A stretch of 64,000 nt of DNA, taken from Selaginella moellendorffii. Taxonomy: Eukaryota; Plantae; Lycopodiophyta. Below the pieces are notes generated by a model that was not told the origin of the DNA, searched no databases, and was given only the letters and a program-made list of their open reading frames with translations. This document shows positions 1-64,000 of the stretch, piece after piece. The position numbers and the translations under genes are program-made. Numbering within the stretch: position 1 is the stretch's first letter; each line of letters starts with the position of its first letter. The DNA lies in contig NW_003314262.1 of the NCBI RefSeq assembly GCF_000143415.4, positions 1,105,960-1,169,959 on the forward strand, read 5' to 3'.

Positions 1-1259
1 TAAAAAAGGACCAATAGTACCAACTTCCTGCCGTTGTGGCAATAAGGAAAGAATGTCTGTAAGGATTGGCTGGCAAATATCTTTTGATACCTAAAGTCAT
101 ATTTGCGACATGAACTAACCAACTTAACCTCAAGACATCACACTTTGGAACTTTTAGTTTCTCCACACCATTAACTCTATGACCCTACCCTAACAACACT
201 TCCCACTTGTATCGAAGTTTTTGCCAAAACAATTGTAGTCATTTGTTATACTAACTATCGGTTAGCATTACAATTTAGTATTCACACACAATTCCTCGTC
301 AAAGTTACTTTCTTCTGTGAACACCTTTCCACGACTTTAGTATAGCATATTTTGCCATCAATGAGATACCCACTGTTCTCATTTTTGAATCTCATGATCC
401 TCCTCATCTTTCGTAGGATATAATACATCTTAGTCCATGTGTTTCCACTAATCCTTTAGGACCATCCTTTGACTCCACTGAGTCATCTAGCTTTCTAGAC
501 ATGCTAATTTGATGATCTCTAAGATTTTAGCTTCATAGCTTCTTTTGGGGTTCCATCTCATTAGAATACAACTTCATGTATTTATGTCTTATTCATAAGG
601 ACTATCTTTGCAAGTGTTACTCTGACACTTGATTATTCTTTGTTTTATGTGAGGTACCTTTGCCTTTTAGGATTATCTATCCATATGATGAAAATACTAA
701 TTCATCCTTTAAGTGCACCCCAAATTCCTTAGGTTGTTCTAGCATTTATTTAAGGTAGCCCTGACTACCATTTCAAGGACTAATATCTTCATTTATATTT
801 GACCTCCTATAGTCACCCACTCTAGTCTCAATTTCTTGAGCATCATCCTCAACTATATAAGGATAATTTTATAACTCTTTTATCATCTAGCAGTTTCCAT
901 TATTCCCGTAATCTGAATTGTAGTTTTTTACCACAATCATATTAGCTAGTTTGCTAAGTCAAACACTTATATGAATTACATTCTCAACTCTCTGAAGAAA
1001 ACCTTTTACTGTTCCTAAAATCTCAAAGTCATTTTCTTATTGGCCCCTTTCTATTCACTATATTGCACACCAATTCACATATGAATTATAGTGGAGAGCC
1101 ATGTCCTCCCAACTTGCTACTCCTCAAATATAGCCCCACTCCTAGGACCTTCCAATATCACTATCAAATGGTAATATTTTTAATTGCCAATAAGAGTCAG
1201 ACTAAGAAACAGTTCTAATACCAAATAATAAGCGACCAAATTTTTCATTCTACTTTAAT
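1..1259 (-). mobile_element. Decayed LTR-retrotransposon internal region, degenerate PBS and 34-bp LTR stub (LTR cut by the DNA transposon)
   Basis: 1090-1222 aligns by eye with 15705-15840. TTCTAATACCA at 1213-1223 is a degenerate reverse complement of the iMet PBS TGGTATCAGAGC. 1226-1259 matches the LTR end seen at 15843-15875 and (reverse) 19041-19073. Confidence 0.7.
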
Positions 1260-1281
1260 GCTCTATTTCGTTAAAGTGGGA
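1260..1281 (+). repeat. Left TIR GCTCTATTTCGTTAAAGTGGGA
   Basis: Exact reverse complement of 14665-14686. Confidence 0.92.
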
Positions 1282-1917
1282 TTTATTCAGTAAAATGGGA
1301 CTAGGTACAAATTTTCAAGTATTTGAAAATGACGTGAAATTATATGTCTTTTGTCCAGGGGCTAGACATATCTGGGGCATGGTGACTAGCGCGGTGACTT
1401 TGTGTCCAGACTAAGTCCATCTGGTTGTATAATAAATCTCATTGTCAAGGTGAACAAGCCGAATCTGAAGCTAAAGAAGAGCAATGGCATGCGCGCACAC
1501 ACTATTTGTTTGTTCATTGAGCGTGTGGTGAGCTTTCCAAAATGAACGTCATTCCTATTAGCCAGACATATAACTTAATGGTGAGAACATTTAGATATTA
1601 TTCAATGTTATCTTTTTCTAACGAATCTAATTGTGAAGGTGTAGCAAGAGGCATTGCTAGTCTGGAGAAGTCATTTAACTCATTTGACCCTTAGTGTATT
1701 TTCATGAAACTAAATAACATTCATATTATTAAGGAATTTCTCTAGTACCTTTTTTTTACGACATAGAGGCTTGCATTTCTTTCAAAGGTGATTTAGTAAA
1801 AGGCCTGAGGGCACATGCCATTCTATTTCTCAGACCGGTATTAAGATATACTAGTGCAAAGGGAAAAAGGTATTTGGTGATCAAGTAAATGGCATGAGGG
1901 CACACACCATTATAAGC

Positions 1918-2192
1918 CTAAGCGCTAGTGGACACCTCCTTTTTGGTACTCTCAGCGGTACTATCATCCTTCTCCGGGTCAGTTGTTTTGCTTTGGATTG
2001 TTGTCTCTGACGTTACTGGGGCGTTCTCGATAGTTGTTAATATTGCCGTTTGTTCAGAAAAATAATCACCTGGAGTATAGTACAGGGAGTTTGGAAGACT
2101 TATATATTCTACATCTTCACCTATCTCCTTCTCCATCTCCTTTTTTGCCTCACTTACAGATTTTGTGCTTGCCATGAGAACGCTCTTCACCC
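1918..2192 (-). CDS. Possible terminal exon of an unknown transposon-borne gene
   Basis: Open frame (KSVSEAKKEMEKEIGEDVEYISLPNSLYY...) downstream of an acceptor-like TATTTTAG. No family recognised. Confidence 0.25.
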
Positions 2193-2888
2193 TAAAATAT
2201 GGAGTTTGTTGTGTTATAAAAGGAAACCAACACACACGCTGCAAGGGAATGATGGTACATAAAGCACGTAAGCCCACAATATGGGTTTATGTGCCATTAA
2301 TATGGGCCACACGCCATATTATTAGATTTATGCATGTGTGATTGGTAAATGCATATGTCACATCATCTTTGTTTTACCTCACACACTATATCAGGCCTAA
2401 TGAACCATATCACATGTGCGCACATGCTATATATATGGAGAAGTATTATGCAAGGATAGAAAAATTCAATGCATGATTATGGAGAGCAATGGCATGAAGC
2501 CACATGCTAAATAACATTTTAGAGAAAGAATTAAAATAGAAACATGCAAACAGTACTGAGTGGACCAAGACTTAGAAGTGCACAATTGAATGAGGTATTT
2601 CTAATAAATATTTCACTCACTTCATATAGGAATGGCTACCACTCTCAAATGGCGTATCGCCTCATGCCATCACCTTGCAATTTGTTATAACAATCCGATG
2701 AATTCATATTTGGCTTGTTCACCTTGAACTTTAAGTAAGATTTGCTAGAACAACTAAGAATTTATACTTGTTATTTGTATCATCTCACCTAGGAATGGTG
2801 TAAGGCCACATGCCATCACACCTCCTCTGATTCAGATTCGGATTGTTCACCTTGAAATAAAATACATTAGAAACTTAGTAAAGGAATA

Positions 2889-5395
2889 TTAATGAATCTC
2901 ACCTTGAACCCGGGTTATGAATGCTCTTGCTGCATCTCTTGCATGGTCTGGCAAGGTGATGGTGGCACTCTGCTTCCGCATCCAACCATGCACAACATTA
3001 TCCACCGATATGCTCATGCTGGGATCCCTTGGATTCAGCACCCATCTCTTTTCTAGGCAATCCTTCGTATATCCGGAACTTGGCTTGAACCACTCCACAG
3101 TTACATTGAAGGAGTTAGTTTCCGCATCCTCCTCTACATCAGTGATGCAGCACCCCACCCATATCATTTGTTTTTTATTACTGGGTCTGACAAGCACGAC
3201 CATTCCTTTGCAGACCTGTACTGGATTGAATGCTGAATCCGGCTTCTTGTTCCTCGGCCCACAATAGTGATCCTCAACATCATTATCTGTCACTGCATTT
3301 CCAGAGGACATTGTTCTGCTACTATCTGGTGCTCTGGGTTCTGGCCAAAAGGACTCTTCCAATTCTTCATATACAACCGGCCCATTTTGGATAGCAGATA
3401 TAATCTTCTCCCAGTACTTGAGCAAAGGCTTGCACCTCTTAAAATAGGATTCTCCACCAAACACCAACCCCCTCTTCCAGAAAGCAATATGCTGTCTAAT
3501 CCCGGCCACTATACTTTCCAAGTCTTTGAGTCCATCCGGGTGTATCGGCCGTGGGGAACCCTGAGGAATCATAGGTTCCCCAGTTATGGGATCTCTCTTG
3601 AAGAGTTCAATGCCGTCCACTGGCAGCCACACTGTGTCCCATTCTCTCATCTTGTACCTCATCACTGGAGCACCGTCACGCATGCTGAAATGAAACTGAA
3701 GAGGCTTGGAGTGGCCAATCAGCATTTCGGATCCGTCCCTGATGTAGCCTCTTACAAACCCCTTAAAGTCTGGAACCTCTGTCACAAGTGTAGCTTCAAC
3801 AGTGCCTTTGATGCAATTTTGGAATTCATCGTAGAGTTGTGGGAGGGTGAGGACATTGGATCGCCGGAGGGACTCTGCCAGGTGACTAAACATGGCATCG
3901 ACGTCTTCATGAGTGTGCCCAACCATGAGAAAGCCAAGTGTAACCGTTTCAAATATGCCTTTGGCAACAAGCATCGCCAAGTACGCAAAGACGTACATGT
4001 TTTTGTTCTCACTGCCAGCATTGTCTGTTTGGAGCAGAAGATGGGGTGGAAGGCCACATCGGCTGCAAGAACTTCCTTGAGATTCTGCTTCGTTTGGATG
4101 AGGCTGTGCATTCACCGGGCGACCAGCCTCGTCGGAATGGCATGAGGCCTCACGTGATAACCCTACAATCTGACGGCCAACATATTCACTGGGATGGCAT
4201 GGGGCCCCACGCGATACTGCAAGCCTTTGCTCCTCCTCTAGTTGAACCCTGTATGGGGTTCGATTGACAAGGGCCTTATGCAAGGGTTGGCCGTTCAACT
4301 CAGTCTGCGCACTTTGCAGAGACCTTAAGTGTTTTGCTAGGGACGCAATCGCACCCCCGCCACCCCATAGAGGTACAAAGAAGTTCCCATAGTTCTGGGC
4401 ACCATGCCCATGAGCGATTATGCCAAACAGAGACACAGGCAGCTGCATGGATGAAGAGATTGCCTTGGGGGTAGGATTGAGTCGAGGTAAGCACGTCTTT
4501 TTCTGGTCCATTTTGTCGTGGATGATGCAGAGGTAAGAGTCAGGTCTCTCCATGGAGAGAATCCTGTTCCATCTTCCAAGAGGCGGGTTTTATGTGGTTG
4601 TTGCTCGCTACATGTCTCGACAAACCTCTTAAAGATTGCCTCTCCATATACAACATGACCCCTGGTTTTGTGCGTACCGTCGTTCCCATGGACTGCCTGT
4701 TGAACCCTTTGTTCCTCGAACTCAGTTTTGATTCTGTAGAATGTGGTTCGAGGGACTCCATAAATGATTCTCCATGCCTTCATGCAGACCAAACCCCTCT
4801 GGAAGACCATGCCCCCCACCTGATGTTCTGAAGCATCAACAAATGACCGTAATGGCTCATACACAAAATTGCAAGCTGCCTTCCAGGACAATGTCTTGTA
4901 TCTTGCTCTCTCCTTTTCAATAGCATCCTAATCAGCATGTTGACAGCACCTCCTCTTGCAACAAGCAACTGTCGAGACCATTCGAACCTCCATCGCCCTT
5001 TTCTACCTTTTCGGTTTGTTGCTCAGATCCCTTTGGCTGCGCTTTAGGAAGGTGTACTTTCTTTGCCCATGAAGAGATGTTCTGTTATCAGTTGTAGTGG
5101 TGTTTGATTGTGAATCCTTCACATTCTCAAACACTAAGTGCCTCAATTTCCACCGCACAATGCTTCCAATAGTCAGACTGTTTTCTTCTGTGTCAACAAC
5201 CTATAAAATTGCAACTCCAATATCATCCCAGCCCAATTCTTGATTAGCAACCGCATCTCTTGGATCGACAACTGTGGCTAAGCCCTCACTTACCACGTCC
5301 CCCTCGGGGTTGTTTAGAAACACCTTTGCCTGAATCCATGTAGCACGGTTCTTAAGATCCACGGAGGGAACATGCATCGCACTTGCGGAGGCCAT
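2889..5395 (-). pseudogene. Transposase, Sola1-like/DUF7869 (DDD type), disrupted
   Basis: Motifs CCKRRCC, VCMKAWRIIYGV, YLCIIHDKMDQKKT, LQTDNAGSENKN and FLMVGHTHEDVDAMFS. One frame runs from 5395 to about 4560 through TAG stops at 5201-5203, 5003-5005 and 4928-4930. A frameshift and probable internal deletion near 4555-4565 leads into ORF 2889-4553. Confidence 0.8.
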
Positions 5396-5759
5396 TCTGA
5401 AAGTGCAAAAAAGAAGTTAAGACAATACAAAAAATGATTGGAGAATGGCCTAAATCATAACATACCAAACAACCTCAATAGCATGAGGCCACATGCCATT
5501 ATTCAAACATGCTATTGACACCACGTGAAATTTCGCATTCACAAAATTGGCATGAGGCCTCATGCCATCTTGATATAAACACAGTTGCAGGCAAGTAAAA
5601 ACATACATGACAATACGCTAGCCATAAAATTGCAAGGGCCCAAGATGGCATATGGCCTCATGCCATTTCTAAATGTGGTCCTAAGCCATTCCATGGTGAA
5701 CATACTAGGAAGCACAAGTGCCGAATATCAAGAGGAAGCGGTAGCCACACCAAAGACAA

Positions 5760-5890
5760 TGCTGCTCGCAACACCGCAACTACTCGTAGTGCCGCTCGCA
5801 ACACCGCAACTGCTCGTAGCGCCGCTCGCACAAACTGCCACTCGCATAAACTGCCGCTCGCAATGGCGCTCGCAATGCCACAACCGCTCG
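5760..5890. repeat. Short GC-rich tandem repeat (about 30-bp unit GCCGCTCGCAACACCGCAACTGCTCGTAGT, decaying)
   Basis: Two near-identical units at 5761-5820, followed by degenerate CGCTCGCAA units. Confidence 0.7.
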
Positions 5891-6689
5891 TAGACGCATA
5901 AACCACAGCTCACAACGCCGCTTACACAAGCAGTGCTCACTGCACTCAACGGAACCAAGAACACGGCGCACAAAAATGATAGACCTAGGAATGAGTTCGA
6001 GAATTCAAAAATAACACACGCTTGAACGTCATATCAAATCCTCTGACAAACCAGATCTTATGATTCCTCTGACAAATTTCAAACTGAGTAGCTTCTAGAC
6101 TTTGCTGTCGGAGGTTGAACTTTGTCACATCATGTCCTTGCCTCGATCCAGCTGTGCCATGTCAGTGATTTGAACTTTGCCATGCCATGTCAGCGATCCG
6201 CGCCAAGATTATTCGCCGTGTAAAGGAATAATTATGCTGTGTGTGTACGTCCATTTATAGCATTATAAGGCCACACGCCATTCAAAGAATAATGCTAGTC
6301 GAGCATTTTTTGGTGCATTTTTGGGTTCAAAATTGCATGAGCCCACACGCTATAAAGTTTACCTGTACCAAAAATAGAAACAACTTTATTTACTTGGGAA
6401 TTTAAGTGGTTGAGGCATTTTTAAACTTACAAACACATGCCCTACTTACATTCCTTTGGTTGCTTAAAATTCAAAAATATTATAAACCTTTCTTTTTGCA
6501 TTTTCAATGTTTTCAATTATGGTTTTTGATTTTTGCAGGACCAGCCTAGTAATCTATTTGCATCCCGTCATGTTTATAGCTAGCTTTCGTTTGTCCCCTT
6601 CGCTAGCCTGAGATACATCTGCTCGGCATCTGCCTCTTACAACATTTGCCCAGAAAGGGCATCTTTCTTCACGCAGCATTTGCCACATG

Positions 6690-6715
6690 TTTAGGGTTTA
6701 GGGTTTAGGGTTTAG
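6690..6715 (+). repeat. Interstitial plant telomeric tract (TTTAGGG)3
   Basis: Read directly. Confidence 0.85.
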
Positions 6716-7558
6716 CAATTCAGTAGCTTGATAAACATGCAAATACAGAACTTGATGCAAAATCCTTTGATATGTCACAATGCCCCTAGGACCATAAACA
6801 CATTTCAATAGAGAGGGTCCTTTCATTTCATAACTCCTTACGTAAATCTTGGTGAAACCAGAGTTAGTGAAGTTAGTTTCTTGTGATCCCGCATCTGATT
6901 GTGATGTCCCTTTGCATTGTCGATGGAAAGGTCAATGCACACCAAACTGTAAAATCTTGGAGCAAAATAATGGTCGGATCTATGGCAAATGCCCCTGAAA
7001 CATTGTAAGGCTCGTGTGGTCTCATGTGGTGTCCAATCGAGATGCTTCTTTGCAAGGTCATCAAGAAAGACATTGTATACCATTCTGTAAAATCTAGTTG
7101 TGATCTAACGGTTGGATCTCCATAAAACTCAAAAAAACCTCGCGCATGTCAGAATATTCTAGGAATATACTCCTATGTGCCCCTGAAAATGGCATGCGTC
7201 CCCACGCCATTCAAGAGATAATGCCAGATGACGCCGAGCAATTTTTGGTGCATTTTTTGGATCAAAATTGCATGAGCCCACACGCTTGAACGTCACATCA
7301 AATCCTCTGACAAACCAGATCTTATAATTCCTCTGACAAATTTCAAACTGAGTAGCTTCTAGACTTTGCTGTTGGACGTTGAACTTTGTCACATCATGTC
7401 CTTGCCTCGATCCAGCTGTGCCATGTCAGTGATTCGAACTTTGCCATGCCATGTCAGCGATCCGCGCCAAGATTATTCGCCGTGTAACTGCTCGGCATCT
7501 GCCTCTTACAGCATTTGCCCAGAAAGGGCATCTTTCTTCATGCAGCATTTGCCACATG

Positions 7559-7583
7559 TTTAGGGTTTAGGGTTAGGGTTTAG
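7559..7583 (+). repeat. Interstitial telomeric tract, duplicate copy with one TTAGGG variant
   Basis: Read directly; lies in the duplicated segment. Confidence 0.85.
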
Positions 7584-10500
7584 CAATTCAGTAGCTTGAT
7601 AAACATGCAAATACAGAACTTGATGCAAAATCCTTTGATATGTCAGGACCATAAACACATTTTAATAGAGAGGGTCCTTTCATTTCATAACTCCTTACGT
7701 AGATCTTGGTGAAACCAGAGTTAGTGAAGTTAGTTTCTTGTGATCCCGCATCTGATTGTGATGTCCCTTTGCAGTGTCAATGGAAAGGTCAATGCACACC
7801 AAACTGTAGAATCTTGGAGCAAAATAACGGTCGGATCTATGGCAAATGTCCCTGAAAAATTGTAAGGCTCGTATGGTCTCATGTGGTGTCCGATCGAGAT
7901 GCTTCTTTGTAGGGTCATCAAGAAGGACATTGTATACCATTCTTTATTTAGCTGAACATCTGGCATTTTTGGAAATACAAGATGCTTTGGAATATCCAAT
8001 CATGCATGGTATAAATATAGCGAGAGTATTAAATGATATCCCAATCATGATCTTTCTTTTGGATTTCGCGTGCATGTAGTCCGAGGAATGATGACGTTGC
8101 GGATTTCTTTTGGATTTCACGTGCATGCATGCGCGCGGCGATCCAGAAATTAATGGTGGCGCCCAAGTCCGAGGAATGATGACGTTGCGGGATTACCAAC
8201 CGTCGTGACATTTCGTGCGTGTGAGGTTAGGTTTTGCATTTTGCTTCGTACTCGCGCTCGCATCGCGCTCCCACTCGCGATCACGCTCACATTCGCGCTC
8301 ATCTACCTTCTCTACAGGTTTCTCGTGTGCATCAGCGTCCACTCGCGCTCGCATCGCGCTCGTGTGCATCGGCGTCCACTTCAAAACACACCCAGTTTGT
8401 AACTTCGCCGCCAACTCCGCCGCCCACTCTGCCACCCACACGCAGCTCACTTGGCGTCCCGGGAGATTTCAGTGCCACTCTCCAACTGTAAGTGGCAGAG
8501 TAGCCTTGCTGCTACGATCCGCTGCACACACAGTGCACATTCGCCAGCGAGTCCGGCCTCGATTGTCACGCCTCCATTCGGCTTCAAATGGTAAGTCTTT
8601 TAGGCCAAGTAGAAAATGGCATGAGGCCACATGCCATTCAGTAGCAACATTGGCATGCATCGATTGGGCTCTCGAGTGCAGTCCGGTTACAGATGGCGTG
8701 TAGCCTCACGCCATCTTAGGATGCAGCCTCAAGACATCTGATGTAGTGGTGAATGGCGTGTGGCCTCACGTTATTTCCAGCTGCTAACTTTTCATCTGTC
8801 AGCTCTAATTGTTGTGCATTTCTGAACAGGCGAGGAATTGCATTCTTCTTCCAACCACTATCAATGTGGATGCAGAGAAGGGGGAGGAGCTCACCAGTTG
8901 GACTTTCGGGATGGAAGGCGAGGATCTGAGGCTGTACAACACAGATGGTGGGAGAAAAGAATGCATGGGGATCCTCATCCAAGTGACAGACACTCCATGC
9001 AGTTCCATGCAAGAATATGGACTGGCACTTGTGGTAGAGACAGCATTCGCCTTCAAGATCCACCTTGCACATCCTAGCGGCTTCCCGGAGGGGGGCAGCG
9101 GCTATGAGGAATTCCTAGAGGGAGCTAGGGAGAGGTTGTCCAGGAGGCCCACAATTTCAAAGACGCTGCGGGTCTATGAAGATCACATGGAATCCACGAA
9201 CCTCACCTACGGCGATGTTCAAAAACTATATTCCAACATTGAGCCGTTGAGAGTGACTCCAGTTCGCGAAGCGAAGGGGAAGGGGGTCGATCTGGAAACT
9301 ACCCCAAAGCAGAAAAGGGTGGTCAAGCTCAAGCCGACGTCTGACTCTCCTGCTCCAAAAAAGAAGCTACTCGGTGATGCCATTGCCTCGGGTTCGAACA
9401 CTACACCCACCAAAACGAAGAGCAGCAAAGAGCAGAAAGAGTAAGAAGAGGCAGCAAAAATTGTTGCAGATAATAGTACTTGTTACTATTCCAACAAAGT
9501 ATATACAATCGACGTGAGCCGTATCGACATCCAAAGCAAATACAACCACAGGCTAGTATCTGATGAGTGGGTGGAGAAATTGAAGCAGAAGATGCTGGCA
9601 AGTCCAGTAACACCCGACATCGCAGACGTGATCCCCTACTACCGAACAATGAAGGGCGAGACGAGGTTTCCAGACTTGATCAATAGGAAGGTGTTGGACG
9701 ATCAGAACATCCGGTTCTATGCCGTCTCCGGGCAGCATTCTAGCTTGGCGATGCAAGAGATAGTTGTGGATATTATGGTGGGCGAGGAGGTGAAGAAAGT
9801 CTTCAAAACAAGAGTTGTCCGCCTGATAAAAGGCAACTCGCCCCTCCGATCTATCATATACATCTCCCACGCGCAGAATGTCAAGCAAGAAACGTGTTAC
9901 AAATCGGGTCTGCACGAAACATTGGCACGAACACGGAAGCTCTGGGTTCAACTGAAGAAGCCACAAAAACCAGGACAAGGACATGCACTAGCAACTAGCG
10001 CCTGGCAGGTAAGCCTCGTTGCATGTGGCATAGCATGTGGCCTCACGCCATTTCCATTGCAGGAATTCTCGAGTCTTCTCTCGAAAACACTGGGGGTCAA
10101 TGACACACTCAGCATCCATAATATTCTACTCGCGACAAAAGTTGTTTTTGACAAATGGGTAGATGTGCTGAGGAGGTACCATGACGGGGAGTTGCTAAAC
10201 TCAATGGGTGTGGAGGACGGTCGGAAGCCCAATGATTTGAAGATCAACACCTTGCGTTTCTCGCGGTCTCTAGACGATGACGACCTTTTGACAGTGGCTA
10301 ATGCTCTTTTACATGGTGAGGTAGTCTTCAACAAGACCAAAATGACTCCCGGCCATATTGTGACATACGAGGACTTGTGCACGACTTTGAGAGCTCGTGC
10401 GCTATTGAAGGATTAGATCTTCGAGCAAGTGGCCATGGAGAGGGTGAGCATTGACACCATGCAAGAGATGATGGAAGAGCTGGAGTTGTCAAATGAAGAC

Positions 10501-11057
10501 ATCGACGAGTACGTGAAGGGGGCCCCCAAGTTCATCGATCTGCTGCGGGATGCCACGAAAAGTAAAGCTGAGAAGTTGGATCAGTATCCAAATTTCATTA
10601 AGAGGTATGTCAACCGCCGGCTTCAGAAACAGCTCGACCCTGCAGCAGAGGCCTATCGAGAACCTTACCGGGTATACGTGAATTCGGATGAGGATCAAAG
10701 GTGGAGGAGCATCGTTTCCCGCGGAGATGAGCAGGTCAAGAACATCTTTTGTGTGATGGACTTCACAAACAAGGAGATCACTCATGCAGACGAAGTCAGC
10801 TCCATGATTGACTTAATGGTGGGACTTGCGGAGGTGGAATCTTCAGTCCACTATATGATCTACGACTCCGAATCCTATCACAAGTTCTGGAAGGCTTTGA
10901 ACGAGGTGAAGGCTCGGTTGAAAGGCAAGGAGATGTGGGAGATCCATGGGATAATGGCTAAGAAGAAGATACCGATGAATGTCCGCATCTTCACACTCGC
11001 CCTTGTTATTGGTCCTGCAGCAAAGTGGGACTGGAGTGACTTCCCAGCTTCGTTCGA

Positions 11058-11157
11058 NNNNNNNNNNNNNNNNNNNNNNNNNNNNNNNNNNNNNNNNNNN
11101 NNNNNNNNNNNNNNNNNNNNNNNNNNNNNNNNNNNNNNNNNNNNNNNNNNNNNNNNN
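11058..11157. other. Assembly gap (100 N)
   Basis: N run. Confidence 1.
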
Positions 11158-13383
11158 TGAAGACGGCTATAGAGCTTTGGAATCCAAAGAAAGCTCCAGG
11201 TGCAGCATGGGAAATGCTCAGCTTGGTCTTCAATGCAATAGCAGGTGGGTCACCTGCTTCCGACTCCAAGGGCAAATGCGTTGTTGAGTACAACTGTGGC
11301 GGACTATTCTTTCGAGCCGCACTACTCAAGGGTGTCCCGTGTGTTGCGGTGACAAACTCCATTGAAGAGGTGACTTCAATGGAGGATATAATTACAGTTG
11401 CCAAAGAAAAACAGTATCTTCTCTGCGAACCTGGTGAGTACGCACTTTAAGTTTAAATGTTATCTCACAAGCTCTGTATGCAGGAGCATGGCCACCCCCA
11501 GATGCTGAAACGGCGTTAACAGCTACTGTTGAAGATACCCATGTTGGGCCGAGCTCACAACCTGCACAAGGTAAGGTCACGTGAGGCCTCACGCCATTTT
11601 GATTATAGATCGTTGTGAATATTCAGACACGAGGACTGAAAAGCGCACTGGTGGCGCGTCGAAGAAGGACAAACAGACAAGCAATAGGAAAAAAGGAGGT
11701 ACAAATTATATTTGCAATGGCGTGTGGTCTCATGCCATTCCTTGCAGGAGACACTTCTTCAAAGGCAAAACAGGCAAGCACCAGCCAAGCTCAAACTGAC
11801 AGTGGTCATAAAAAGCGAAAGCACGTTGGACAATCGTCGGGATCAGAGGCGTTTGATTCGAAAAGGAAGAAGGGCAATGAAAAGATGATAGGTAATGCCT
11901 CGCGGTTATGGCGTGTGTGCTCATGCCATTCATTGCAGATCAAGGGCTGAGTGAAAGCAGCCAGTCACCACCTCCTGACTCAGATTCCTATGGCAAACTC
12001 CCCTTCCCCAATCTCAATGGAGAGGTACAATGGATGAGGGATGCTTTTCAAGTCAGGGCCACGTTTTTCTCATCTCGTCATCTTCGAAGGGTGCAAGAAC
12101 GTGCAGAAACCATGTTAAGATAGTCAGGTGAGAATACGGTCCTAGGTCACACACTAAAACAGGCTATGGATGTCTTGTATTTTGAGATGGAGACTCGGCC
12201 AAATGATTTTCCCAAGATGGTCCTGGAAGAACAAGCCATCCAGCCTGAGCAGCCTATGGAAGAAATGCAGGAGGGGGATGAGGAGCCAGAGAAAGATAAT
12301 GAGCAGGAAGAGCAGAAGGACGAAGAGGAGGACGAAGAAGAGGAGGACAAAGAGGACTTGGATGGTCCTCACAATGGTGACGATCACAATAACGACGACA
12401 ACGATGATGACAACGATAGCCAGCCTGAGGTGGCCAAAGAGCAGCGGAGGAAGGTCATACAAAACAAACCATCAGGTAAATAATAGTTCATCCATTCCTA
12501 ACCTTTTACCATTTCTAACATTATCCATGTAGGTCGCAGAGCAAATGGTAAATAGAGATTATTCAGTTGAATTAAGATACAAACTCTAGCCTTTAGTATC
12601 GAGGAAGGATAGTGCCAAGCAAGGGTCGAAACGTATGTCCAATCCTTCAGAATCAGCAGTGCGCCCAAGTGATATCTGTCCTAGTTCCTCAATAGCAGTT
12701 GATGGTAAATATAGTATAGTCGATTTAATGTGCTAATGAGTTTGTTTTTAGTAGCACGGGAGGATACCATCTCAATCGAAGGGAGATATTTGGACATGCA
12801 TATGGATCCGCCAGTGGACTCTACTTGCTTGCAAGAGTCATCAGAGCTGGTGGAGGCTACTATCCATATCAACACCAAGCAAGCTGACCACGCTCCACTT
12901 GATGCTGCCCATACCACAGAGTCAATCTTGTCCACGTATCCAACTGACAGTGACCAGGCGCCATTGGACCCGCATGAGGCTGCCCCAGCCACCGAGCCGG
13001 TCGTATCCTCATTTCCAATGGACTCAATGTGTGCCCAATCGTCTGACTACGCACCGTTGGAACCTCCCTACACCGCCCCTGCTGCCTGTTCGGTCATGTC
13101 CACTTTGCCAACGGAGGCACCAGCTGAAATGGCGTGTGATCACACGCCATCGGAACCATCCCATGCCACAGTTGAGCCAGTTGTACCAGAGTCTACAGCT
13201 GAAATGGCATGTGCCCACATGCCATCGGATGCGATTGACCCCACATTGCAGAGGAGAGTATTTCCGCCCTTCACGTTTCCTCGACCAAAACCCTCTCAAC
13301 GACCATCGGGAGCACCATTCGCTAATATTGTAGATGGTAAAATTGACTTGTACCATTTTTTATGTTGACGCATTTCATTTCAG

Positions 13384-14246
13384 AGTCACGGAGAAGGTAC
13401 TGTATCGTTTTTGATCTAAACGGTGTCATTTTCTCCCATGAGCGTGGCTCGTCCTCGAATGTCACTGCACCCTCCAAAGCTTGCGGTCGCAAGTTGGTCA
13501 AAAGAGACAGATTCACATTAATCACACGGGAGAAACTGTGGGATCTAATAATGACCATGCGACACTTAAAACAGAGGGCCGGGTTCAATTTGCAATTGGG
13601 AGTTTGGACATCCATGATGCGCCACAATGCATTAACGTTGCTACAGATGATGCATGATCAGACGCGAGTAATATTACCATTTGACTTTCTCCTAACGCAG
13701 GAGGATTGCTTGACTATAGTCCATGTGAGGGGTAGCAAGCCCATCTTCGTCAAGCCAGAGGCTGTAGTGATGAACCGGACTGCTAGGTCAAGTGAAATCC
13801 TCATCATCGATGACTCGCAGATTAAAACTGCAGCGAACACACACACATATGCAGTGCACCCCATCTCTTGCAGTATGAAAACTAGGGAGAAGAAACCGTA
13901 TGTTCTGGGGGACCTTGCAAAACGGCTTGGAGTGATGGTGATAGAGAACCGGCCAGTCCAGGAGGTGGCTGCAGAAATCAACCAAATGGCAGATGGAATG
14001 GTATATCAGAAGCCATTTGATCAGACAGACACCAGTCATCATTTATGGCATGTATATTGTCTAGCCAAGCACTATCCGCATCTCCATAATCTGCTCAACC
14101 GGATGGGTTCTTTGACCACTGAACATGAGCGTGGACGTATTAGAGAAGAGATGGCATTACTATTGGGTTTAAATCCTGATAGTGTGGAGAGTGATGAAAT
14201 TCCAAGATTATTGTATAGGCGTTGGAGGCAAAAAATAACAGTCTGA
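13384..14246 (+). CDS. FCP1/NIF-like HAD-superfamily domain exon (DLNG variant)
   Basis: HAD motif I-like VFDLNGV, motif II-like GVWTS and motif IV-like IIDDS...K. Joined in frame to the upstream exon by intron 13336-13383. Confidence 0.7.
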
Positions 14247-14664
14247 GATGGCATGTATTTATTTTAAAATGTAACTTATTATGGCATGGGGTTCTATGCC
14301 ATTGTATTAATATTAAAAGACAATTCTTTGAGAGGATTTGCATTATACTAGAAGTGTTACAGCATGTTATTGGAAGTCTACGAAGTTGTTTTATTAATAA
14401 GGGGAAAGTAAAGATTGAATGGGGACTTGGGCTCCACCTAGACTCGGAGCAACTGAGCCAATATTAAAAGGATGGAAAGAAATTGGACGACGATGATAAG
14501 GAGAAGAGAGAGGTGAAGTAGTGGCAGGGGGAGGAGAAGTGATTGAGTAGACATTTCCTTGTTTAAAATAAAATGGCATGTGCCTCAATGCAGTTGAATT
14601 TTGTTATATTTATATACTATATAAAGGTTTGGAAACCTTATTTTACAAGTGGGATAATGACAAT

Positions 14665-14686
14665 TCCCACTTTAACGAAATAGAGC
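14665..14686 (-). repeat. Right TIR TCCCACTTTAACGAAATAGAGC
   Basis: Exact reverse complement of 1260-1281. Confidence 0.92.
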
Positions 14687-15149
14687 TTTCCTCCTCCTTT
14701 CCCCAGTTTGGGACTTCGAGACAATGTTTCGAAACACCGTGGCCCTACGCGAGCCCCATAAGTACTCTCCCCACCTTCCACCTTTAAGTGCTATAGCCAT
14801 GGGCTTAGAGCGAGGGTCCGTTGAGCCACGCCAAGTATCCAACTAGGTAGTGCCACCCACATTTGGACTGGGAGCATCGGCCATTCAATCTCCTGGAGGA
14901 ACTAGAGCTGGCTCTTCAATACTTCACTAAATTACCCTGCTTGTTGGTCGGTATTCACTCTAGCCTTGGACTTCCCAATAGTTATCCCATTACCCAACAT
15001 CTGGGTATAGCCTTCATGGGCCAAACTCTCAACCTTTCAAGTCAAAGTTTTTAGTCCAAACGTGTTATATTCGTTTGGCTTTCGCTTCGGCCACTACCAC
15101 GTGGCACCCTTTTGGTTCCACTTTGGGGCTTAGGGATTTGTGTCTCACA
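14687..15149 (-). mobile_element. Remainder of the LTR interrupted by the DNA transposon
   Basis: Ends in TGTGTCTCACA, the reverse complement of the LTR start TGTGAGACACA. Aligns to parts of the 17809-19073 LTR. Confidence 0.75.
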
Positions 15150-15842
15150 ACTCCACCACCCATAAATGAAGTTCAATGTCCTTATTGAACAATAAACTAT
15201 TTTATCAAGTAATACCAACAAATATTACCCTTCCTATCATTGGCACCTAGCCAATATTCGTCAAGGGTTGGACACCAAAAGCTCACCCTGCCTTGTTCAT
15301 CCTCTAAGGAGCATAGTCTCTTCAACATAGAGACTCTATTGACCACTTGTGGTGGTTCTTTCCTTTTTATTGGTTTAGCTCTCGCTAAACCTATTAGAGA
15401 CACCTTCTCGATCTCAATCCCACTACTCCTCCTCGAGTAATTTTAACTTCCATCGATATAACCATTCCTCTTTAGAACTTTTAGTCTTGACTTCTTGAAG
15501 TCAATTTACTAGGTGTCTCCGACACCTTTCATTGCACATATTGTGCAAACTCCACTTCCCCATCCTAGGAAGTTCTCTACTTGAGGGCACCATCATCTTC
15601 TTTCCTATTTTGTGCCACCTTTGGCACTAAGTTCCAATTATCCTAATTCATGCTAGGGCTGTCCACAACCCTATCAACCTTACTTTCAAGTTCACACCTG
15701 AACTGTAGTGGAGAGCCATGTCTTCCCAACTTGCTACTCCTCAAGGATAGGCCCACTCCGAGGACTTTCCAATGCTAACACTAGTGGTGATATACTTCAA
15801 CACCAATAAAAGTCAGACTAAGGAACAGCTTTGATACCAAGT
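15150..15842 (-). mobile_element. Short (about 690 bp) non-coding internal region of a non-autonomous TRIM-like LTR element
   Basis: PBS TGGTATCAAAGC on the minus strand at 15828-15839, next to the LTR end. PPT GGGTGGTGGAGT on the minus strand at 15150-15161, next to the other LTR. Confidence 0.75.
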
Positions 15843-16678
15843 CGTAAGCGATTAATTTTTCCATTCTACTTTAGTCACTTAACCATACTTCCAACCACTT
15901 GGAGAAGTCTCATTCACAACCTCCATAAGTCCTATTCCAAACTTGGGCATACTAGCCCCGAGAAGGGCATCCCTACCACTCAACCTTTGCACTTGGCCCA
16001 AGTGCTCCACATGTCCGATCCCATGACTGACACCCAAAGGTACCACTGACATATTGGCCGAATATTGGCAAATTGGAAAGGAAAAATTTGTGGCTTACAC
16101 CTGCTTGTCGGTCCGCATTCACTCTAGCCTTGGACTTCCCAGTGGTTATCTGGGTACAGCTTTCCTGGGCCAAATTGGCCTTTCCTGGCCAAACTGGCTC
16201 TACTAGAGTCCTCCCCCCTTACTATACTTTTGGAGCTCACCAAACCCCCCTAGGGTCCGGAAGACGAACACTTTGGGCTTTCACCCTCTCAGACTCGGAC
16301 TCGGACTTGAACTCGGACTCGGACTCGGGCTTGGGCTTGGGCTCGGTCTCGGCCTCAGCCTCGGTCTCGGTCTCAGTCCCGATCTCGATTTCAGTCTCGA
16401 CTTCAGACTCCATCTCGGGTCCTTCTCAGACTCTGTCTCGGGTCCATCTCAGACTCTTCCATGTGTCATGTGTCGGTCCGTCTCTTTTGTAGAGACTCAC
16501 TTATTGCTCACTTCATGTTTGTTCCTCAAGCACTTCATTAGGAGTTCCACTCCCACTCTCAACCTTTCAAGTTAGAGCTTTTAGTCTAAACATGTTATGC
16601 TCGTTTGGCTTTCTCTTTGGCTACTACCACATGGCACCCTTTTGGCTCCACTTTAGGGCTTAAGGATTTGTGTCTCAT
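15843..16678 (-). mobile_element. LTR (internally deleted copy) with GAGTCC/GAGACC microsatellite
   Basis: Same termini and internal blocks as 17809-19073 and 63057 onward. Confidence 0.75.
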
Positions 16679-16710
16679 AGTGACCTCTCGGAAAGTCCAA
16701 ATTCAGGACC

Positions 16711-19073
16711 TTACACATTGGTATGACAAAAGTGAATGGGCATGACCTTAGCGTAGCAAACTGATATGTCGATAATACTTTTGGGTGTTGGTAATGGGAT
16801 CAGACATATGGAGCACTTGAACCAAGTGCAAAGGTTGAGTGGCATGGATGCCATTTTCGGGGATAGCATATCCCCAAGTCTAGAATAGGACTTATGGAGA
16901 TTATGAGTGAGATTCCCCCAAAAAGTTGGAGGTGTGGTTAAATGACTAAAGTAGATAGAGCCCATAATAAAAAATGCTAAAGAGACTTACTAGGGGTGAA
17001 CACCCCTTGGACTCAGCAAAGCAAAGCCTTTGATATGGAATCGAAAGAATACCTCGAAGGTGGAGGTAGTGATCCTATGTTGCTTGGTGTAACAATCAAA
17101 GGATAGCAACAAAAGATAAATGGCCAAGAATAATCCATAGAAATCATTAGAAGGAATCCAAATGGCAAAGTTAGGAATACTTAGGTGTTGAATGTTAATG
17201 AATTGTGGAAAAAGAAATATATTTTTAAAGATGAATTTTCAAATGTTTTAATTTGGCGAAAGGGAAAACTCTTAGGGAGGGAGTGGCAAGGTAACCAAAT
17301 GATAGGGCTATGGACAACCCTAATACAAATTATAGATAAATGGAACTTAATGCCAAGGGTGGCACGAAATATAAGAGAGGATGATAGTGCCCTTAAGTAA
17401 AGAACTTCTTAGGATAGGGAAGTGGAGTTTATACAATAAATGTAATATAAGATGTCAGAGATATTTAGGAAATTGACTTTGAAAAGTCAAAATTAAAAGT
17501 TCTAAAGTGTGATAATTATATTGATAAAAGTTGAGACTACTCGGGAATGAGTTGTTGGATTGAGATAGAGAAGGTGTCTTTAATAGCAAAGACTAAACAA
17601 ATATAGACATATGATCAAATGAGTTTCTAAATTAAAGAGACTATACTCATTAGAGAATGGGCAAAGCATGGTGAGCCTTTGGTGTTGAACTAATGATAAA
17701 TATTAGTTACATGCCAAGGATGAAAAAGGGTAATCCATAGTGGGGTTACTTTATTAAATGGTTTATCATTTGATGAGGACATCAAACTTTGTTTATGGGT
17801 GGTGGCATTGTGGAACACAAATCTCTAAGCCTCAAAGTGAAGCCAAAAGCGTGCCATGTGGTAGTAGCTGAGGCAGAAGCCAAATGAATATAACACATTT
17901 GGACTAAAAACTCCAACTTGAAAGTCAAGAGTGGGAGTGGAACTCCCAAATGAAGTGATCGAAGGCCGAGAACGAAATGAGCAACAACTGAGTCTCCAGA
18001 AAAAGGGATCCGAAATGGAGTCTGAGATGGAGTTTGAGATAAACCTAAGATAGAGTCCAAGATAGACCCAAAATAGAGTTCGAGATGGACCTGAGATGGT
18101 GTCCAAGATGAAATTTGATATGGAGTCCGAGATGGACCTAAGACGGAAACCGAGATGGAGTCTGAGATGGACCTGAGATAAAGATAGAGACCGAGACCGA
18201 GAATATACCCTTGTATTTGGTAATGATATAAACACTGAGGAGTCCAATGCTAGAGTGAATATAGACAAACAAGCAGGGTAGCTTGGTGAATTGTTCAAGA
18301 GCCGGCTCTACCTTCTCTAGGGGATCGAATGGTCGATGCTTTTAATCCAAGTGTGGGTGGCACTACCTACTTGGATACTTGGTATGGCTCAATAGAATCT
18401 CACTCTAGCCACATAATTAGGGCACCCAAAGGCAAAAGGTGGGGAGAGTACCCATAAGGCTTGCATAAAGTTGTAATGTTTTCAAATATTGTCCTAAAGT
18501 CCTAGATTGAGGAAAGGAAGAGGAGAAATCCTCTTGTGTGGTGACTAAAGATGCAACCATATGGCAAGGAAGTTCTAGAGATCAGTGGGATGTAATGGTT
18601 CGGCCTTCAAACCTTGACTCAGTGGTAGTGTTAGTGAACACATCTGTGGATAGAAAGGGATTTGGTGGGGACCGAAAGAGGATATTAAGGAAGGTTATTC
18701 CCTATGTTTAAGGGCATCCTAAAAATGCTAAGAAGTGGATTTGGGATGATCATTTATGGATAGATGGCCTAGTCTTTGAAAGACAGGACTGTGATGTAAA
18801 TTGTGTTGGATCACCAGTGTAACAAAGGTGAATGGGCATGGCCTTAGTGTAACGCACTGATATGTCAGTAGTATCTTTGGGCATTGGTTATGGGATCAGA
18901 TATGTGGAGCACTTGAACCAAGTGCAAAGGTTAAGTGGCATAGATGTTATTTTTAGGGTTAGCAAGTCCCTAAATCCAAAATAAGATTTATGGAGATTGT
19001 GAGTGAGACTTTTCCAAGTAATCAAAGGTGTGGTTAAGTGACTAAAGTAGAATGAAAAACTTAGTCGCTTACA
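16711..19073 (+). mobile_element. Second, inverted copy of the same LTR family: LTR fragment 16711-16958, internal region, PPT 17797-17808, full LTR 17809-19073
   Basis: 17300-17808 is the reverse complement of 15150-15670. The LTR has TG...CA ends (TGTGGAACACA ... CGCTTACA). Confidence 0.75.
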
Positions 19074-19079
19074 ATTATA

Positions 19080-19850
19080 TGTTTTTATTCCTTCAGTTCT
19101 TAGTTGTACTCTTAAAAGTTACCCTGTGCTCTAGTTTCTTCATTCCTTGGCTATATACTTAGGAGTTTTACTCCATCCCTTCATTCAAATATTCACTCCT
19201 CAGATCAACCTTGGTAAACATTCAAGCTTCACTAAGCTTATTGAATATATCATTCATATGTGGTATCAACATTTTATCCTTCACTATGGTAGTCAATAGA
19301 TATCCACATTGAATTATTCTTATTCTTCAAGAGCAAGATTGACATACCAAATATAAACTTACTTGGCTAAATAAATCCAAACTTAAATAACACTTTGACT
19401 TATTATTGAATTTTATGTTGTTGAAATGGATGTTGATAGATCAATTTTATCCTAACTCCAGTATAAGCTCATGTTTCACACCTTGTAATAGAGGCAACAA
19501 ATAAGGAGGTTCAGATGGAAAGACATTAACAAACTTTTGAGTACATCCCACATTATTGCTTCTCCCCCACATGTGTTTTAGTCCTTGTAACTTGAAAGTG
19601 TCTTTCCATTATGAAAAGCTTACTGCAAATATATAATGGAGAGCATAACAACTTAAATGTTGCATGCTTAGATCACATTTGATAGACCCATCTCTTAGAC
19701 TTTTGTTATCCTCAATGTAAGCATGCTTACATGTAGTATTTGAGCAAGAAGAGTAAAGTTGTTTTTAGATCTTTATTGATAGGTGTTGCAATCCAACCAA
19801 GTGACATTTGTGCATCATGAAACAACACTTCAGAAAATTAGGAAAAGTTG
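19080..19850 (-). mobile_element. Decayed Ty3/Gypsy pol fragment
   Basis: Minus-strand translation gives VLKKFVNVFPSEP..LLPLLQGVKHELILELG, PSKFIFGMSILLLKNKNNSMWISIDY and TKVDLRSEY. These are degenerate forms of the Gypsy RT N-terminal motifs PSxSPWGAPVLFVKKKDGSxRMCIDY and SKIDLRSGY. Confidence 0.6.
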
Positions 19851-62700: not shown

Positions 62701-63056
62701 TCGGCACTTCATGTGCATAATAAAATTTTTAGTCATGGGGTAACTACTGTCAACTGGTCACATCATCCACTTCTCTCGATGTTCCTTATTTCATAAGGCA
62801 TGACCATGTAAACAACTCACTATCTGTATACAGTAGTTTATCTAAACCTTACCGACGAGTTTGGTTTCTTTGCTTAGGAGGGTTGGGGCCTTTGGCTTTT
62901 CTCTCTATGTTCCTATAGGAAGGGGCGTATCACACTTTTGTAAGTTGGGTGACAGCCAGAGCAACAAGGGTGGCTAACTCCATTGGTCATTTCCTTGTTG
63001 GCGACGGCCGAATAGGTCTGAGTTGGTAATGCATTTGCGTTAGAAAAAGAGGTTAT

Positions 63057-64000
63057 TGTGAGACACAAAATCCCTAGGCCCCAAAGTGGAGCCGGAAGGG
63101 TGCCACATGGTAGTGGCCGAAGCGAAAGCCAAACGAGCGTAACATGTTTGGACTAAAAGCTCCGACTTGAAAGGTCGAGAGCGGGAGTGGAACTCCCAAC
63201 AAAGGGCTTGAGGAACAAGAATGAAGTGAGCAATAAGCGAGGCTCCAAAAGGGGGCCCAAAAGGACCAACACATGACACGTGGAAGTGTCCGAGATGGAG
63301 TCCGAGATGGACCCAAGTTGGAGTCCGAGATGGAGTCCGAGGTGGACCCGAGATGGAGTCCGAGGTGGAGCCCGAGATGGAGTCCGAGGTGGAGTCCAAG
63401 ATGGACACGAGTTGGAGTCTGAGGTGGAGTCCAAGATGGACCCGAGGTGGAGTCCGAGATGGAGTCCGAGGTAGACCCGAGATGGAGTCTGAGATGGAGT
63501 CCGAGAAGGACTTGAGATGGAGTCCAAGATGGACCCGAGATGGAGTCCGAGATGGACCCGAGATGGAGTCTGAGATGGACCCAAGATGGAGTCCGAGATG
63601 GAGTCTGAGATGGACCCGAGATGGAGTCCGAGATGGAGTTCGAGATGGACCGAGATGGAGTCTGAGATTGAGTCCGAGATGGACCCGAGATGGAATCCAA
63701 GATGGAGTCCGAGAAGGACCCGAGATGGAGTCCGAGGTCAAGATCGAGACCGGGACTGAGACTGAGACCGGGATTGAGACTGAGACCGAGACCGAGACTG
63801 AGACCGGGACCGAGACCGAGACCGAGACCGAGCCCGAGCCCGAGCCCGAGTCCGAGTCCGAGTCCGAGTCCGAGTTCGAGTCTGAGAGGGTGAAAGCCCA
63901 AAGCATTCATCTCCCAGACCCTGGGGGGTTTGGTGAGCTCCAAAAGTATAGTAAGGGGGAGGACTGTAGTGGAGCCAGTTTGGCCAGGAAAGGCCAGTTT
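63057..64000 (+). mobile_element. LTR of the same family as 14.7-19 kb, running off the window end
   Basis: Starts TGTGAGACACA; reverse-complement homology to 16180-16678. Confidence 0.8.
63290..63885 (+). repeat. LTR-internal satellite: mixed GAGATGGAGTCC (12 bp) and GAGATGGACCC (11 bp) units, then 6-bp GAGACC/GAGCCC/GAGTCC units
   Basis: Read directly. Confidence 0.9.

What the first reader, a model, noticed from the sequence alone, without database searches (positions are those of the whole stretch)
8591..11938. Palindromes occupy the branch-point position of the cargo gene's tiny introns
In the predicted introns 8591-8644, 10009-10062, 11571-11608, 11699-11747 and 11892-11938, and before the AGs at 8718-8719 and 8779-8780, the palindrome ends about 5-11 nt upstream of the 3' AG. 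Its CTCAC/CTCAT core resembles a YTNAY branch site. Some of these introns are little more than GT + palindrome + AG (38-54 nt). Similar short GT-palindrome-AG units occur on the minus strand near 2640-2675 and 2790-2822. Inference: introns may let the element hide DNA binding sites in coding regions, the motif may act as a strand-symmetric intron-generating module, or the hairpin may regulate splicing.
Basis: partly seen in the sequence, partly recalled or inferred. Interest (0 to 1): 0.8.

Follow-up and report, generated by a model that had tools for sequence, protein, structure and literature searches.

The report
Transposon DNA sites doubling as branchpoints
A DNA transposon in what is likely a spikemoss genome carries 25 copies of a 22-letter palindrome, likely docking sites for its own ParB-like protein, and in four host-sized short introns of that protein's gene the palindrome overlaps the predicted splicing branch point, so it likely does two jobs at once.

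Summary
Partly confirmed. The palindrome (ATGGCRTG-N6-CAYGCCAT) occurs 25 times in a 13.4-kb terminal-inverted-repeat transposon and nowhere else in the window. Four of the seven cited cases are convincing introns (10009-10062, 11571-11608, 11699-11747, 11892-11938). In each, the palindrome's CTCAY puts an A at -16/-18, where palindrome-free introns of the element carry YTNAY (-14 to -17). The three 5' cases fit better inside one 239-nt intron with its own branch motif, and the two minus-strand units lie at or after the transposase stop. The introns are not unusually small for this host (44-65 nt in a neighbouring gene), except one of 38 nt. The motif did not create intron 10009-10062: its position is shared with homologues at 24-34% identity. 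The two arms do not covary, which argues against a selected RNA hairpin. The cargo protein is predicted to have a ParB/Noc-like fold. Best reading: element-wide DNA binding sites kept out of coding sequence, as in VANC/VANDAL, and overlaid on the branch site in short introns. Binding and branch-point use are untested; no RNA junction was recovered.

The parts
1260..14686 (.). DNA transposon, about 13.4 kb, multi-copy, two divergent genes; this copy is decayed
   Evidence: Inverted repeat 1257-1284 / 14662-14689, 93%; DNA-like contigs of X9 cover 8150-14688 and leave for other flanks near 14688 and 14696; no target-site duplication seen
2816..5395 (-). Transposase gene (DUF7869); intron 2902-2851; stop at 2818-2816; carries a premature stop and an internal deletion
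   Evidence: Pfam E 2e-41; 42 homologues; P0042 is 94% identical over the aligned quarter and shows the missing stretch (compared by eye); 3' model
8588..14246 (+). Cargo gene, predicted 10 introns: ParB-like domain, helical domain, unassigned alpha/beta part, low-complexity region, NIF-like domain
   Evidence: Models; fold; NIF E 5e-4, below cut-off; the stops at 10414-16 and 12121-23 are sense codons in other copies; the stop at 9442-44 is not resolved
8591..8829 (+). Intron A, predicted 239 nt, holding three interior palindromes (8616, 8693, 8753) and its own CTAAT at -22
   Evidence: In-frame join to the ORF; branch motif; not shown by RNA
10009..10062 (+). Intron B, 54 nt, phase 0, old position; palindrome 10030-10051, core A at -18
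   Evidence: read-through residues fall in a pLDDT<50 stretch, 178-203
11571..11608 (+). Intron D, 38 nt, phase 1; palindrome 11576-11597 with a degenerate left arm, core A at -18
   Evidence: Frame; shorter than all 13 host introns modelled
11699..11747 (+). Intron E, 49 nt, phase 1; palindrome 11717-11738, core A at -16
11892..11938 (+). Intron F, 47 nt, phase 1; palindrome 11908-11929, core A at -16; last 31 nt 90% identical to E
11434..13383 (+). Palindrome-free control introns C 11434-11483, G 12476-12532, H 12548-12596, I 12705-12751, J 13337-13383 (47-57 nt, phase 1)
   Evidence: YTNAY at -17, -15, none, -16, -16
1484..2816 (.). Palindromes near the left end and in the transposase 3' region (1484, 1800, 1889, 2409, 2489, 2649, 2795)
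4137..7210 (.). Palindromes in a variable transposase linker (4137, 4194), upstream of the transposase ATG (5478, 5547, 5645) and between the genes (6332, 7189)
13129..14594 (.). Palindromes in a low-complexity cargo exon (13129, 13204) and near the right end (14281, 14573)

Best explanation
The 22-bp palindrome is repeated 25 times along one transposon and is likely a double-stranded DNA site for an element-encoded dimeric protein, most likely the predicted ParB/Noc-like cargo; in four short cargo introns it overlaps the predicted branch point and likely serves as that signal too. Shown: copy number, confinement to the element, avoidance of coding sequence, position of the core A at -16/-18, lack of covariation between arms, old position of intron B, host-normal intron size. 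Predicted: the gene models and the ParB-like fold. Inferred: the protein binds the two half-sites and marks or protects its own family (self-recognition, anti-silencing or self-modification). A 22-bp site fills 41-58% of a 38-54-nt intron, so it is kept where the TCA of the right arm can stand in for YTNAY without breaking splicing. The site plus acceptor tail may have been copied between introns as a cassette.
For: 25 copies against 0 outside and 0.3 shuffled. 4 of 25 in coding sequence, P=5e-5. Arm pair 6/17 is independent (9,7;4,4; P=1.0) and pair 9/14 is complementary in only 8 of 25, as expected for two half-sites read separately. The cargo model (pLDDT 78.8) matches Noc (E 5.5e-4), ParB and KorB in Foldseek and PadC (Z 9.1, rmsd 3.5, 100 aligned) and KorB (Z 8.1, rmsd 10.1, 148 aligned, model 18-321) in VIA-align. 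Branch position matches six control introns; three of the four antisense readings give CACAY instead. Precedents: VANC21 binds its motif in introns, intergenic and terminal regions (PMC5735166, passages); a Sola1 element with an opposite-strand ParB-like/methyltransferase gene is proposed to bind and modify its own sequence (PMC12477816, passages); ParB-family VirB is an anti-silencer (PMC10653881, abstract).
Against: No binding data. No splice junction in any of the 8 runs laid (of 23 listed); the three raw RNA runs have zero depth over B, D, E and F. The DNA-binding-domain match is weak (ParB DNA-binding domain 6s6h Z 3.1; TM-scores 0.2-0.35 by query). The ParB arginine patch (recalled motif) is replaced by SGQHS. 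Two half-sites around a 6-bp spacer is not the recalled parS/NBS geometry. The branch argument rests on four non-independent introns, and T at position 14 is favoured on the sense strand across the element (11 of 14 polar copies, P=0.057; hand tally, test). Only 3 of 13 host introns show YTNAY at -14 to -22, so the host may not need a strong motif. 85 of 100 differences from X9 are of the C>T/G>A type in the window copy, which suggests this copy was methylated. No related family could be checked for its own palindrome.
Confidence: 0.55

Rival explanations
1. The palindrome is a transposase binding site spread through the element; the cargo is not the binder. The branch overlap would be as in the main reading.
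For: 5 of 25 copies lie near the ends. The transposase N-terminal part has a very weak helix-turn-helix hit (HTH_psq E 0.28). Transposases can act as sequence-specific regulators of their own copies (bioRxiv 10.64898/2026.08.24.746577, abstract only).
Against: 20 of 25 copies are internal; the first lies about 220 bp inside the left end and none is in the inverted repeat. The cargo is predicted to have a fold whose members bind palindromes.
Confidence: 0.2
2. The overlap with the branch position is geometric or historical: the motif spreads by duplication and conversion, and a 22-mer in a 38-54-nt intron can hardly miss the branch zone. The real branch A need not be in it.
For: No enrichment in short introns (P=0.13). 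B, E and F share palindrome plus tail, so they may be one event. Sense-strand T bias is element-wide. In D, 5 of 9 placements would fit.
Against: Joint placement probability 0.008; 3' gaps are 7-9 nt while 5' gaps range 5-21 nt. None of the four introns has another YTNAY between -14 and -30.
Confidence: 0.13
3. The motif acts as RNA: a hairpin hides the branch A and tunes cargo splicing.
For: E and F fold into the expected stem, which pairs the core A (z -2.53 and -1.72; 5 and 8 of 200 shuffles as good).
Against: B and D do not form it (z 0.45, -1.17). No covariation across 25 copies. Most copies are outside short introns, some between the genes. It could still be a side effect in E and F.
Confidence: 0.07
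4. GT-palindrome-AG is a strand-symmetric intron-generating unit (introner) moved by the element.
For: All four introns follow an exonic AG (4 of 4, against 1 of 5 controls); D is little more than donor, palindrome and acceptor; B, E and F align (z about 6). The age of D, E and F could not be tested.
Against: B's position is shared with distant homologues. Similarity does not reach the 5' boundary (scores -2, 0, -7). No copies outside the element in 50 kb. No paired minus-strand introns. A genome-wide survey found no introners in land plants (PMC9860276, passages).
Confidence: 0.05

Closest known systems
Giant Sola1-1_Ec32 (Ectocarpus) and related algal transposons with a ParB-like/DNA-methyltransferase accessory gene (PMC12477816, passages; its refs 50 and 51 not read)
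   Same: [quoted passage not shown]
   Different: Land plant; methyltransferase domain not shown here; extra NIF-like domain; the passages read name no target motif, while this element offers a 25-copy candidate; Sola assignment untested
VANC21 / YAGTATTAY in Arabidopsis VANDAL21 (PMC5735166, passages)
   Same: Family-specific motif throughout the element, mainly non-coding, including introns of the accessory gene; accessory gene with fast-changing exon-intron structure
   Different: VANC motifs are 9-bp, same-orientation, tandem arrays; this is a dispersed 22-bp palindrome (median spacing 242 bp). Different transposase and accessory protein. The passages read mention no overlap with splice signals
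Bacterial ParB/parS, Noc/NBS, KorB, VirB
   Same: Predicted ParB/Srx domain followed by a helical domain; multiple palindromic sites on the same DNA
   Different: Arginine patch (recalled) not kept, so CTP clamp function is doubtful; site geometry differs; 8-14% identity to the solved proteins
Introners (PMC9860276, passages)
   Same: Several short introns share sequence
   Different: Similarity only at the 3' end; at least one intron position is old; confined to one transposon gene

Membership tests
Host-type U2 introns (B, D, E, F) | GT-AG ends, removal restores frame or matches homologues | tested here: met
Host-type U2 introns (B, D, E, F) | Junctions seen in RNA | tested here: inconclusive
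   No RNA cover over these introns and no joints
Host-type U2 introns (B, D, E, F) | Branch A lies in the palindrome | not testable with these tools
   Position only; needs lariat reads
Introner | Similarity reaches both intron boundaries | tested here: not met
   5' parts of B, E, F unrelated; criterion from PMC9860276
Introner | Recent insertion at new positions | tested here: not met
   Not met for B; D, E, F untested
Introner | 3-9 bp target-site duplication or terminal repeats (optional feature) | tested here: inconclusive
   Junction repeats are 2-3 nt for D, E, F and 5 nt for B, all ordinary splice-site letters; the palindrome is internal
VANC/VANDAL anti-silencing | Family-specific motif, mainly non-coding, including introns | tested here: met
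   only this window could be scanned
VANC/VANDAL anti-silencing | Motifs in same-orientation tandem arrays | tested here: not met
   Dispersed palindromes, spacing 57-1546 bp
VANC/VANDAL anti-silencing | Mutator-type transposase and VANC-type protein (recalled) | tested here: not met
   Transposase is DUF7869; cargo is ParB-like
VANC/VANDAL anti-silencing | Protein causes loss of methylation on its family | not testable with these tools
   Needs expression and methylome data
ParB/Noc CTPase clamp | ParB/Srx N-terminal fold | tested here: met
   Foldseek E 5.5e-4 to Noc; VIA Z 9.1 to PadC; no sequence-level hit
ParB/Noc CTPase clamp | Helix-turn-helix DNA-binding domain after it | tested here: inconclusive
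   KorB and Spo0J alignments extend over it, but Z is 3.1 for the isolated domain
ParB/Noc CTPase clamp | Arginine patch for CTP (recalled motif) | tested here: not met
   SGQHS here; G and H invariant, no Arg at the next position
ParB/Noc CTPase clamp | Binds a cognate palindrome | not testable with these tools
   Inference from co-occurrence
Sola-type giant with ParB-methyltransferase gene | Opposite-strand accessory gene with ParB-like domain | tested here: met
Sola-type giant with ParB-methyltransferase gene | 4mC/6mA methyltransferase domain | tested here: inconclusive
   A conserved stretch (VVEYNCGG) recalls a SAM-binding motif; the homologue model is low-confidence there and searches gave nothing clear
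Sola-type giant with ParB-methyltransferase gene | Sola transposase, termini and target-site duplication | not tested
   DUF7869 only; the link to Sola is recalled; the defining paper was not held

The most novel reading that the evidence does not exclude
A land-plant transposon uses a bacterial-style ParB/parS logic: its cargo loads at about 25 palindromic sites to mark or protect its own family, and the site has been fused with the branch point and acceptor into a ~31-nt cassette that can replace the 3' end of any short intron. Binding at the DNA site or folding of the RNA could then let the protein control its own splicing.
Probability: 0.2. Interest if true: 0.8.

Novelty: new variant of a known kind. 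Interest (0 to 1): 0.52.

Why it matters
ParB-like accessory genes of algal transposons have been proposed to bind and modify their own elements, but the passages I read name no target. This element supplies a sharp candidate site and a land-plant family (homologues in Riccia, Calypogeia, Diphasiastrum, Selaginella), which makes the proposal testable by a simple binding assay. The four introns would also be a compact example of one sequence read both as a DNA site and as a branch point. The more dramatic idea, a new intron-making element in land plants, is not supported.

Tried and rejected
No whole genome is held, so family-wide position statistics were impossible. No RNA holder is listed on record. 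Laying 8 of 23 listed runs gave no splice joint; parts without cover say nothing about expression. The cargo search over 408-1299 aa found 0 of 7994 candidates; the profile search found 1 of 7995. A metagenome scan for related loci gave 152 pattern matches, none confirmed; a palindrome scan gave 6 loci with one match each, treated as chance. Enumeration of 5' splice paths was uninformative. PHROGs, NCBIfam and PDB sequence searches gave nothing significant for the cargo. The second fold, on host paralogue P0029, had mean pLDDT 53 and no clear match, so the methyltransferase idea is neither shown nor excluded. P0002 is a repetitive spurious hit; P0003, P0015 and P0019 do not span intron B; all four stay in the denominator of 22. 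Three earlier-finding look-ups returned nothing. Literature: ten searches listed no paper on this element or motif; (Selaginella + DNA transposon + palindrom + subterminal) gave 0. The Selaginella genome paper, the Sola paper and the Bostrychia paper were not held, no supplements were read, and Repbase could not be searched, so the family may already be catalogued. No complex prediction was run, because the open question is protein-DNA.
Full report
Setting. The finding lies in a 13.4-kb element bounded by a 28-nt inverted repeat (1257-1284 / 14662-14689). It has a minus-strand DUF7869 transposase (E 2e-41) and a plus-strand cargo gene. Contigs of run X9 behave like DNA: they cover 8150-14688 unspliced at depth 80-120 and leave for other flanks near 14688 and 14696, so the family is multi-copy. 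The host is likely Selaginella. This is inferred from a compact gene block with very short introns and from named S. moellendorffii homologues. PMC6157073 (one passage) says that species' intron lengths differ sharply from other land plants. No genome is held.

The motif. ATGGCRTG-N6-CAYGCCAT occurs 25 times in the element, 0 times in the other ~50 kb, and 0.3 times on average in 30 shuffles. By my gene models 5 copies are near the ends, 4 in the transposase 3' region, 3 upstream of the transposase ATG, 2 between the genes, 3 in cargo intron A, 4 in short cargo introns and 4 in coding sequence. Coding sequence is 56% of the element, so 4 of 25 is a strong depletion (P=5e-5). Those four lie in a transposase linker that varies among homologues and in a low-complexity cargo exon. 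Among 21 non-coding copies, 4 in short introns is not an enrichment (P=0.13).

Which introns are real. After the N gap, eight GT-AG introns of 38-57 nt, all phase 1 and none a multiple of three, give one 900-codon frame with a single internal stop that is a sense codon in X1 contigs. D, E and F are among them. Intron B is in frame, so homologues decide. The RefSeq host paralogue reads WQ|EFESF with no insert. Twelve of 22 homologues at 24-38% identity read a valine at that point, most followed soon by a stop, as expected when a gene caller runs into a phase-0 GT. Five are colinear without the insert, one is divergent, and four are uninformative. I read this as a real and old intron. For the 5' cases, one 239-nt intron (8591-8829) joins the ATG in frame and has CTAAT at -22. 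The short alternative runs into a stop unless further introns are added, one candidate donor (8743) is GC in five other data sets, and RNA-like contigs from three studies cross the AGs at 8644, 8719 and 8780 without a gap. Those contigs come from a different copy that lacks the 8591 donor, they also cross 8829 unspliced, and contigs drop rare forms, so this is modest evidence. The minus-strand unit 2821-2789 holds the transposase stop and touches the next donor; 2673-2636 is past the stop and lacks a branch-like core.

Size. Thirteen introns modelled in the neighbouring kinesin gene restore the motor motifs and measure 44-65 nt. B, E and F (47-54 nt) are ordinary; D (38 nt) is the one outlier.

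Branch position. In B, D, E and F the A of CTCAY is at -18, -18, -16, -16, and no other YTNAY lies between -14 and -30. Six of seven palindrome-free short introns of the element have YTNAY at -14 to -17. Random placement within the four introns would give this with probability 0.008, a post hoc figure for copies that share ancestry. The T that makes CTCAY is present in 4 of 4, against 15 of 46 other readings (P=0.017) or 9 of 21 sense readings (P=0.057). Near other copies a YAG is no commoner than background (13 of 46 against 21-24%). Only 3 of 13 host introns show the motif in that zone. The overlap is real and probably functional, but it rests on four cases and no lariat.

DNA site or RNA hairpin. 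The variable arm positions 6 and 17 are independent (P=1.0), and spacer pair 9/14 is complementary in only 8 of 25 copies; it gives the site a polarity instead. E and F fold into the stem, B and D do not. This fits two half-sites read by a dimer better than a selected hairpin.

Candidate binder. A model of 9445-10413 (pLDDT 78.8; intron read-through disordered) matches Noc, ParB and KorB in Foldseek (best E 5.5e-4) and PadC (Z 9.1) and KorB (Z 8.1) in VIA-align. The Atlas lists ParB clusters, below its naming bar, for a liverwort homologue. The N-terminal fold is supported; the DNA-binding domain is only suggested, and the recalled arginine patch is absent. A methyltransferase-like part is possible but not shown.

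Comparison. The architecture resembles Sola1-1_Ec32 of Ectocarpus, whose opposite-strand ParB-like/methyltransferase gene is proposed to bind and modify its own element (PMC12477816, passages). The distribution of the motif resembles VANC21 targets in introns, intergenic and terminal regions (PMC5735166, passages). It works like these; it is not a VANDAL, and Sola membership is untested. It fails the introner criteria of PMC9860276 (passages): the 5' parts of the introns are unrelated and B is old. B, E and F do share palindrome plus acceptor tail, so copying of a site-branch-acceptor cassette into existing introns remains open; TTGCAG also ends 3 of 13 host introns, so convergence is possible.

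Verdict. The introns are host-normal in size and were not made by the motif where that could be tested. The most likely reading is an element-wide protein binding site, overlaid on the branch point where space is short (confidence 0.55). It is a new variant of a known kind, interest 0.52, mainly because it hands a testable target to the ParB-like transposon accessory proteins.

Noticed in passing
window 8485-8524: A 40-nt piece upstream of the cargo ATG matches an abundant RNA exactly (100-240 reads per run with foreign flanks). The flanks look like the 3' region of large-subunit rRNA (recalled): a captured rRNA fragment.
   Followed up: no
window 8596-9087: RNA-like contigs from three studies join a foreign 5' sequence to 8596 and read on unspliced: a transcribed, 5'-truncated copy fused to host sequence, or a host exon spliced to the AG at 8594-8595.
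   Followed up: partly
P0011/P0029-P0031 (EFJ30523, XP_024528744): A S. moellendorffii gene is homologous to the cargo's middle part but lacks the ParB-like domain in its models; possibly a domesticated copy. It keeps intron B's position.
   Followed up: partly
window 13384-14246 and P0009: The cargo ends in a NIF-phosphatase-like domain; a Diphasiastrum protein also joins the ParB-like part to a NIF domain.
   Followed up: no
window 11434-13383: All eight introns of the low-complexity half are phase 1; H, I and J share ATG|GTAAA and weak similarity (z 3.1-3.5 for H-I and I-J), suggesting duplication of symmetric exon-intron units without the palindrome.
   Followed up: partly
window 1445-1506 and 2702-2856: The transposase's last intron-exon unit is duplicated in tandem, and again inverted near the left end, each with a palindrome behind it.
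   Followed up: no
window 6015-7944: Internal duplications between the two genes, each copy with a short TTTAGGG run.
   Followed up: no
window 1484-14594: The palindrome has a polarity (T..T or A..A at spacer ends); 11 of 14 polar copies point with the sense strand of the nearer gene (hand tally; P=0.057).
   Followed up: partly
window 8150-14688: 85 of 100 differences from X9 contigs are C>T or G>A in the window copy, a methylation-deamination signature; the 100-N gap is 53 letters in X9.
   Followed up: no
window 1074-1257, 14690-19100, 63040-64000: Flanks are fragments of another repeat family; the two sides of the element match different parts of it and no target-site duplication is visible.
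   Followed up: partly
window 21700-56100: Compact host genes read from ORFs (names recalled): mitochondrial carrier, kinesin, NIF phosphatase, bHLH factor, MinD, plastid EF-Ts fusion, leucyl-tRNA synthetase.
   Followed up: no
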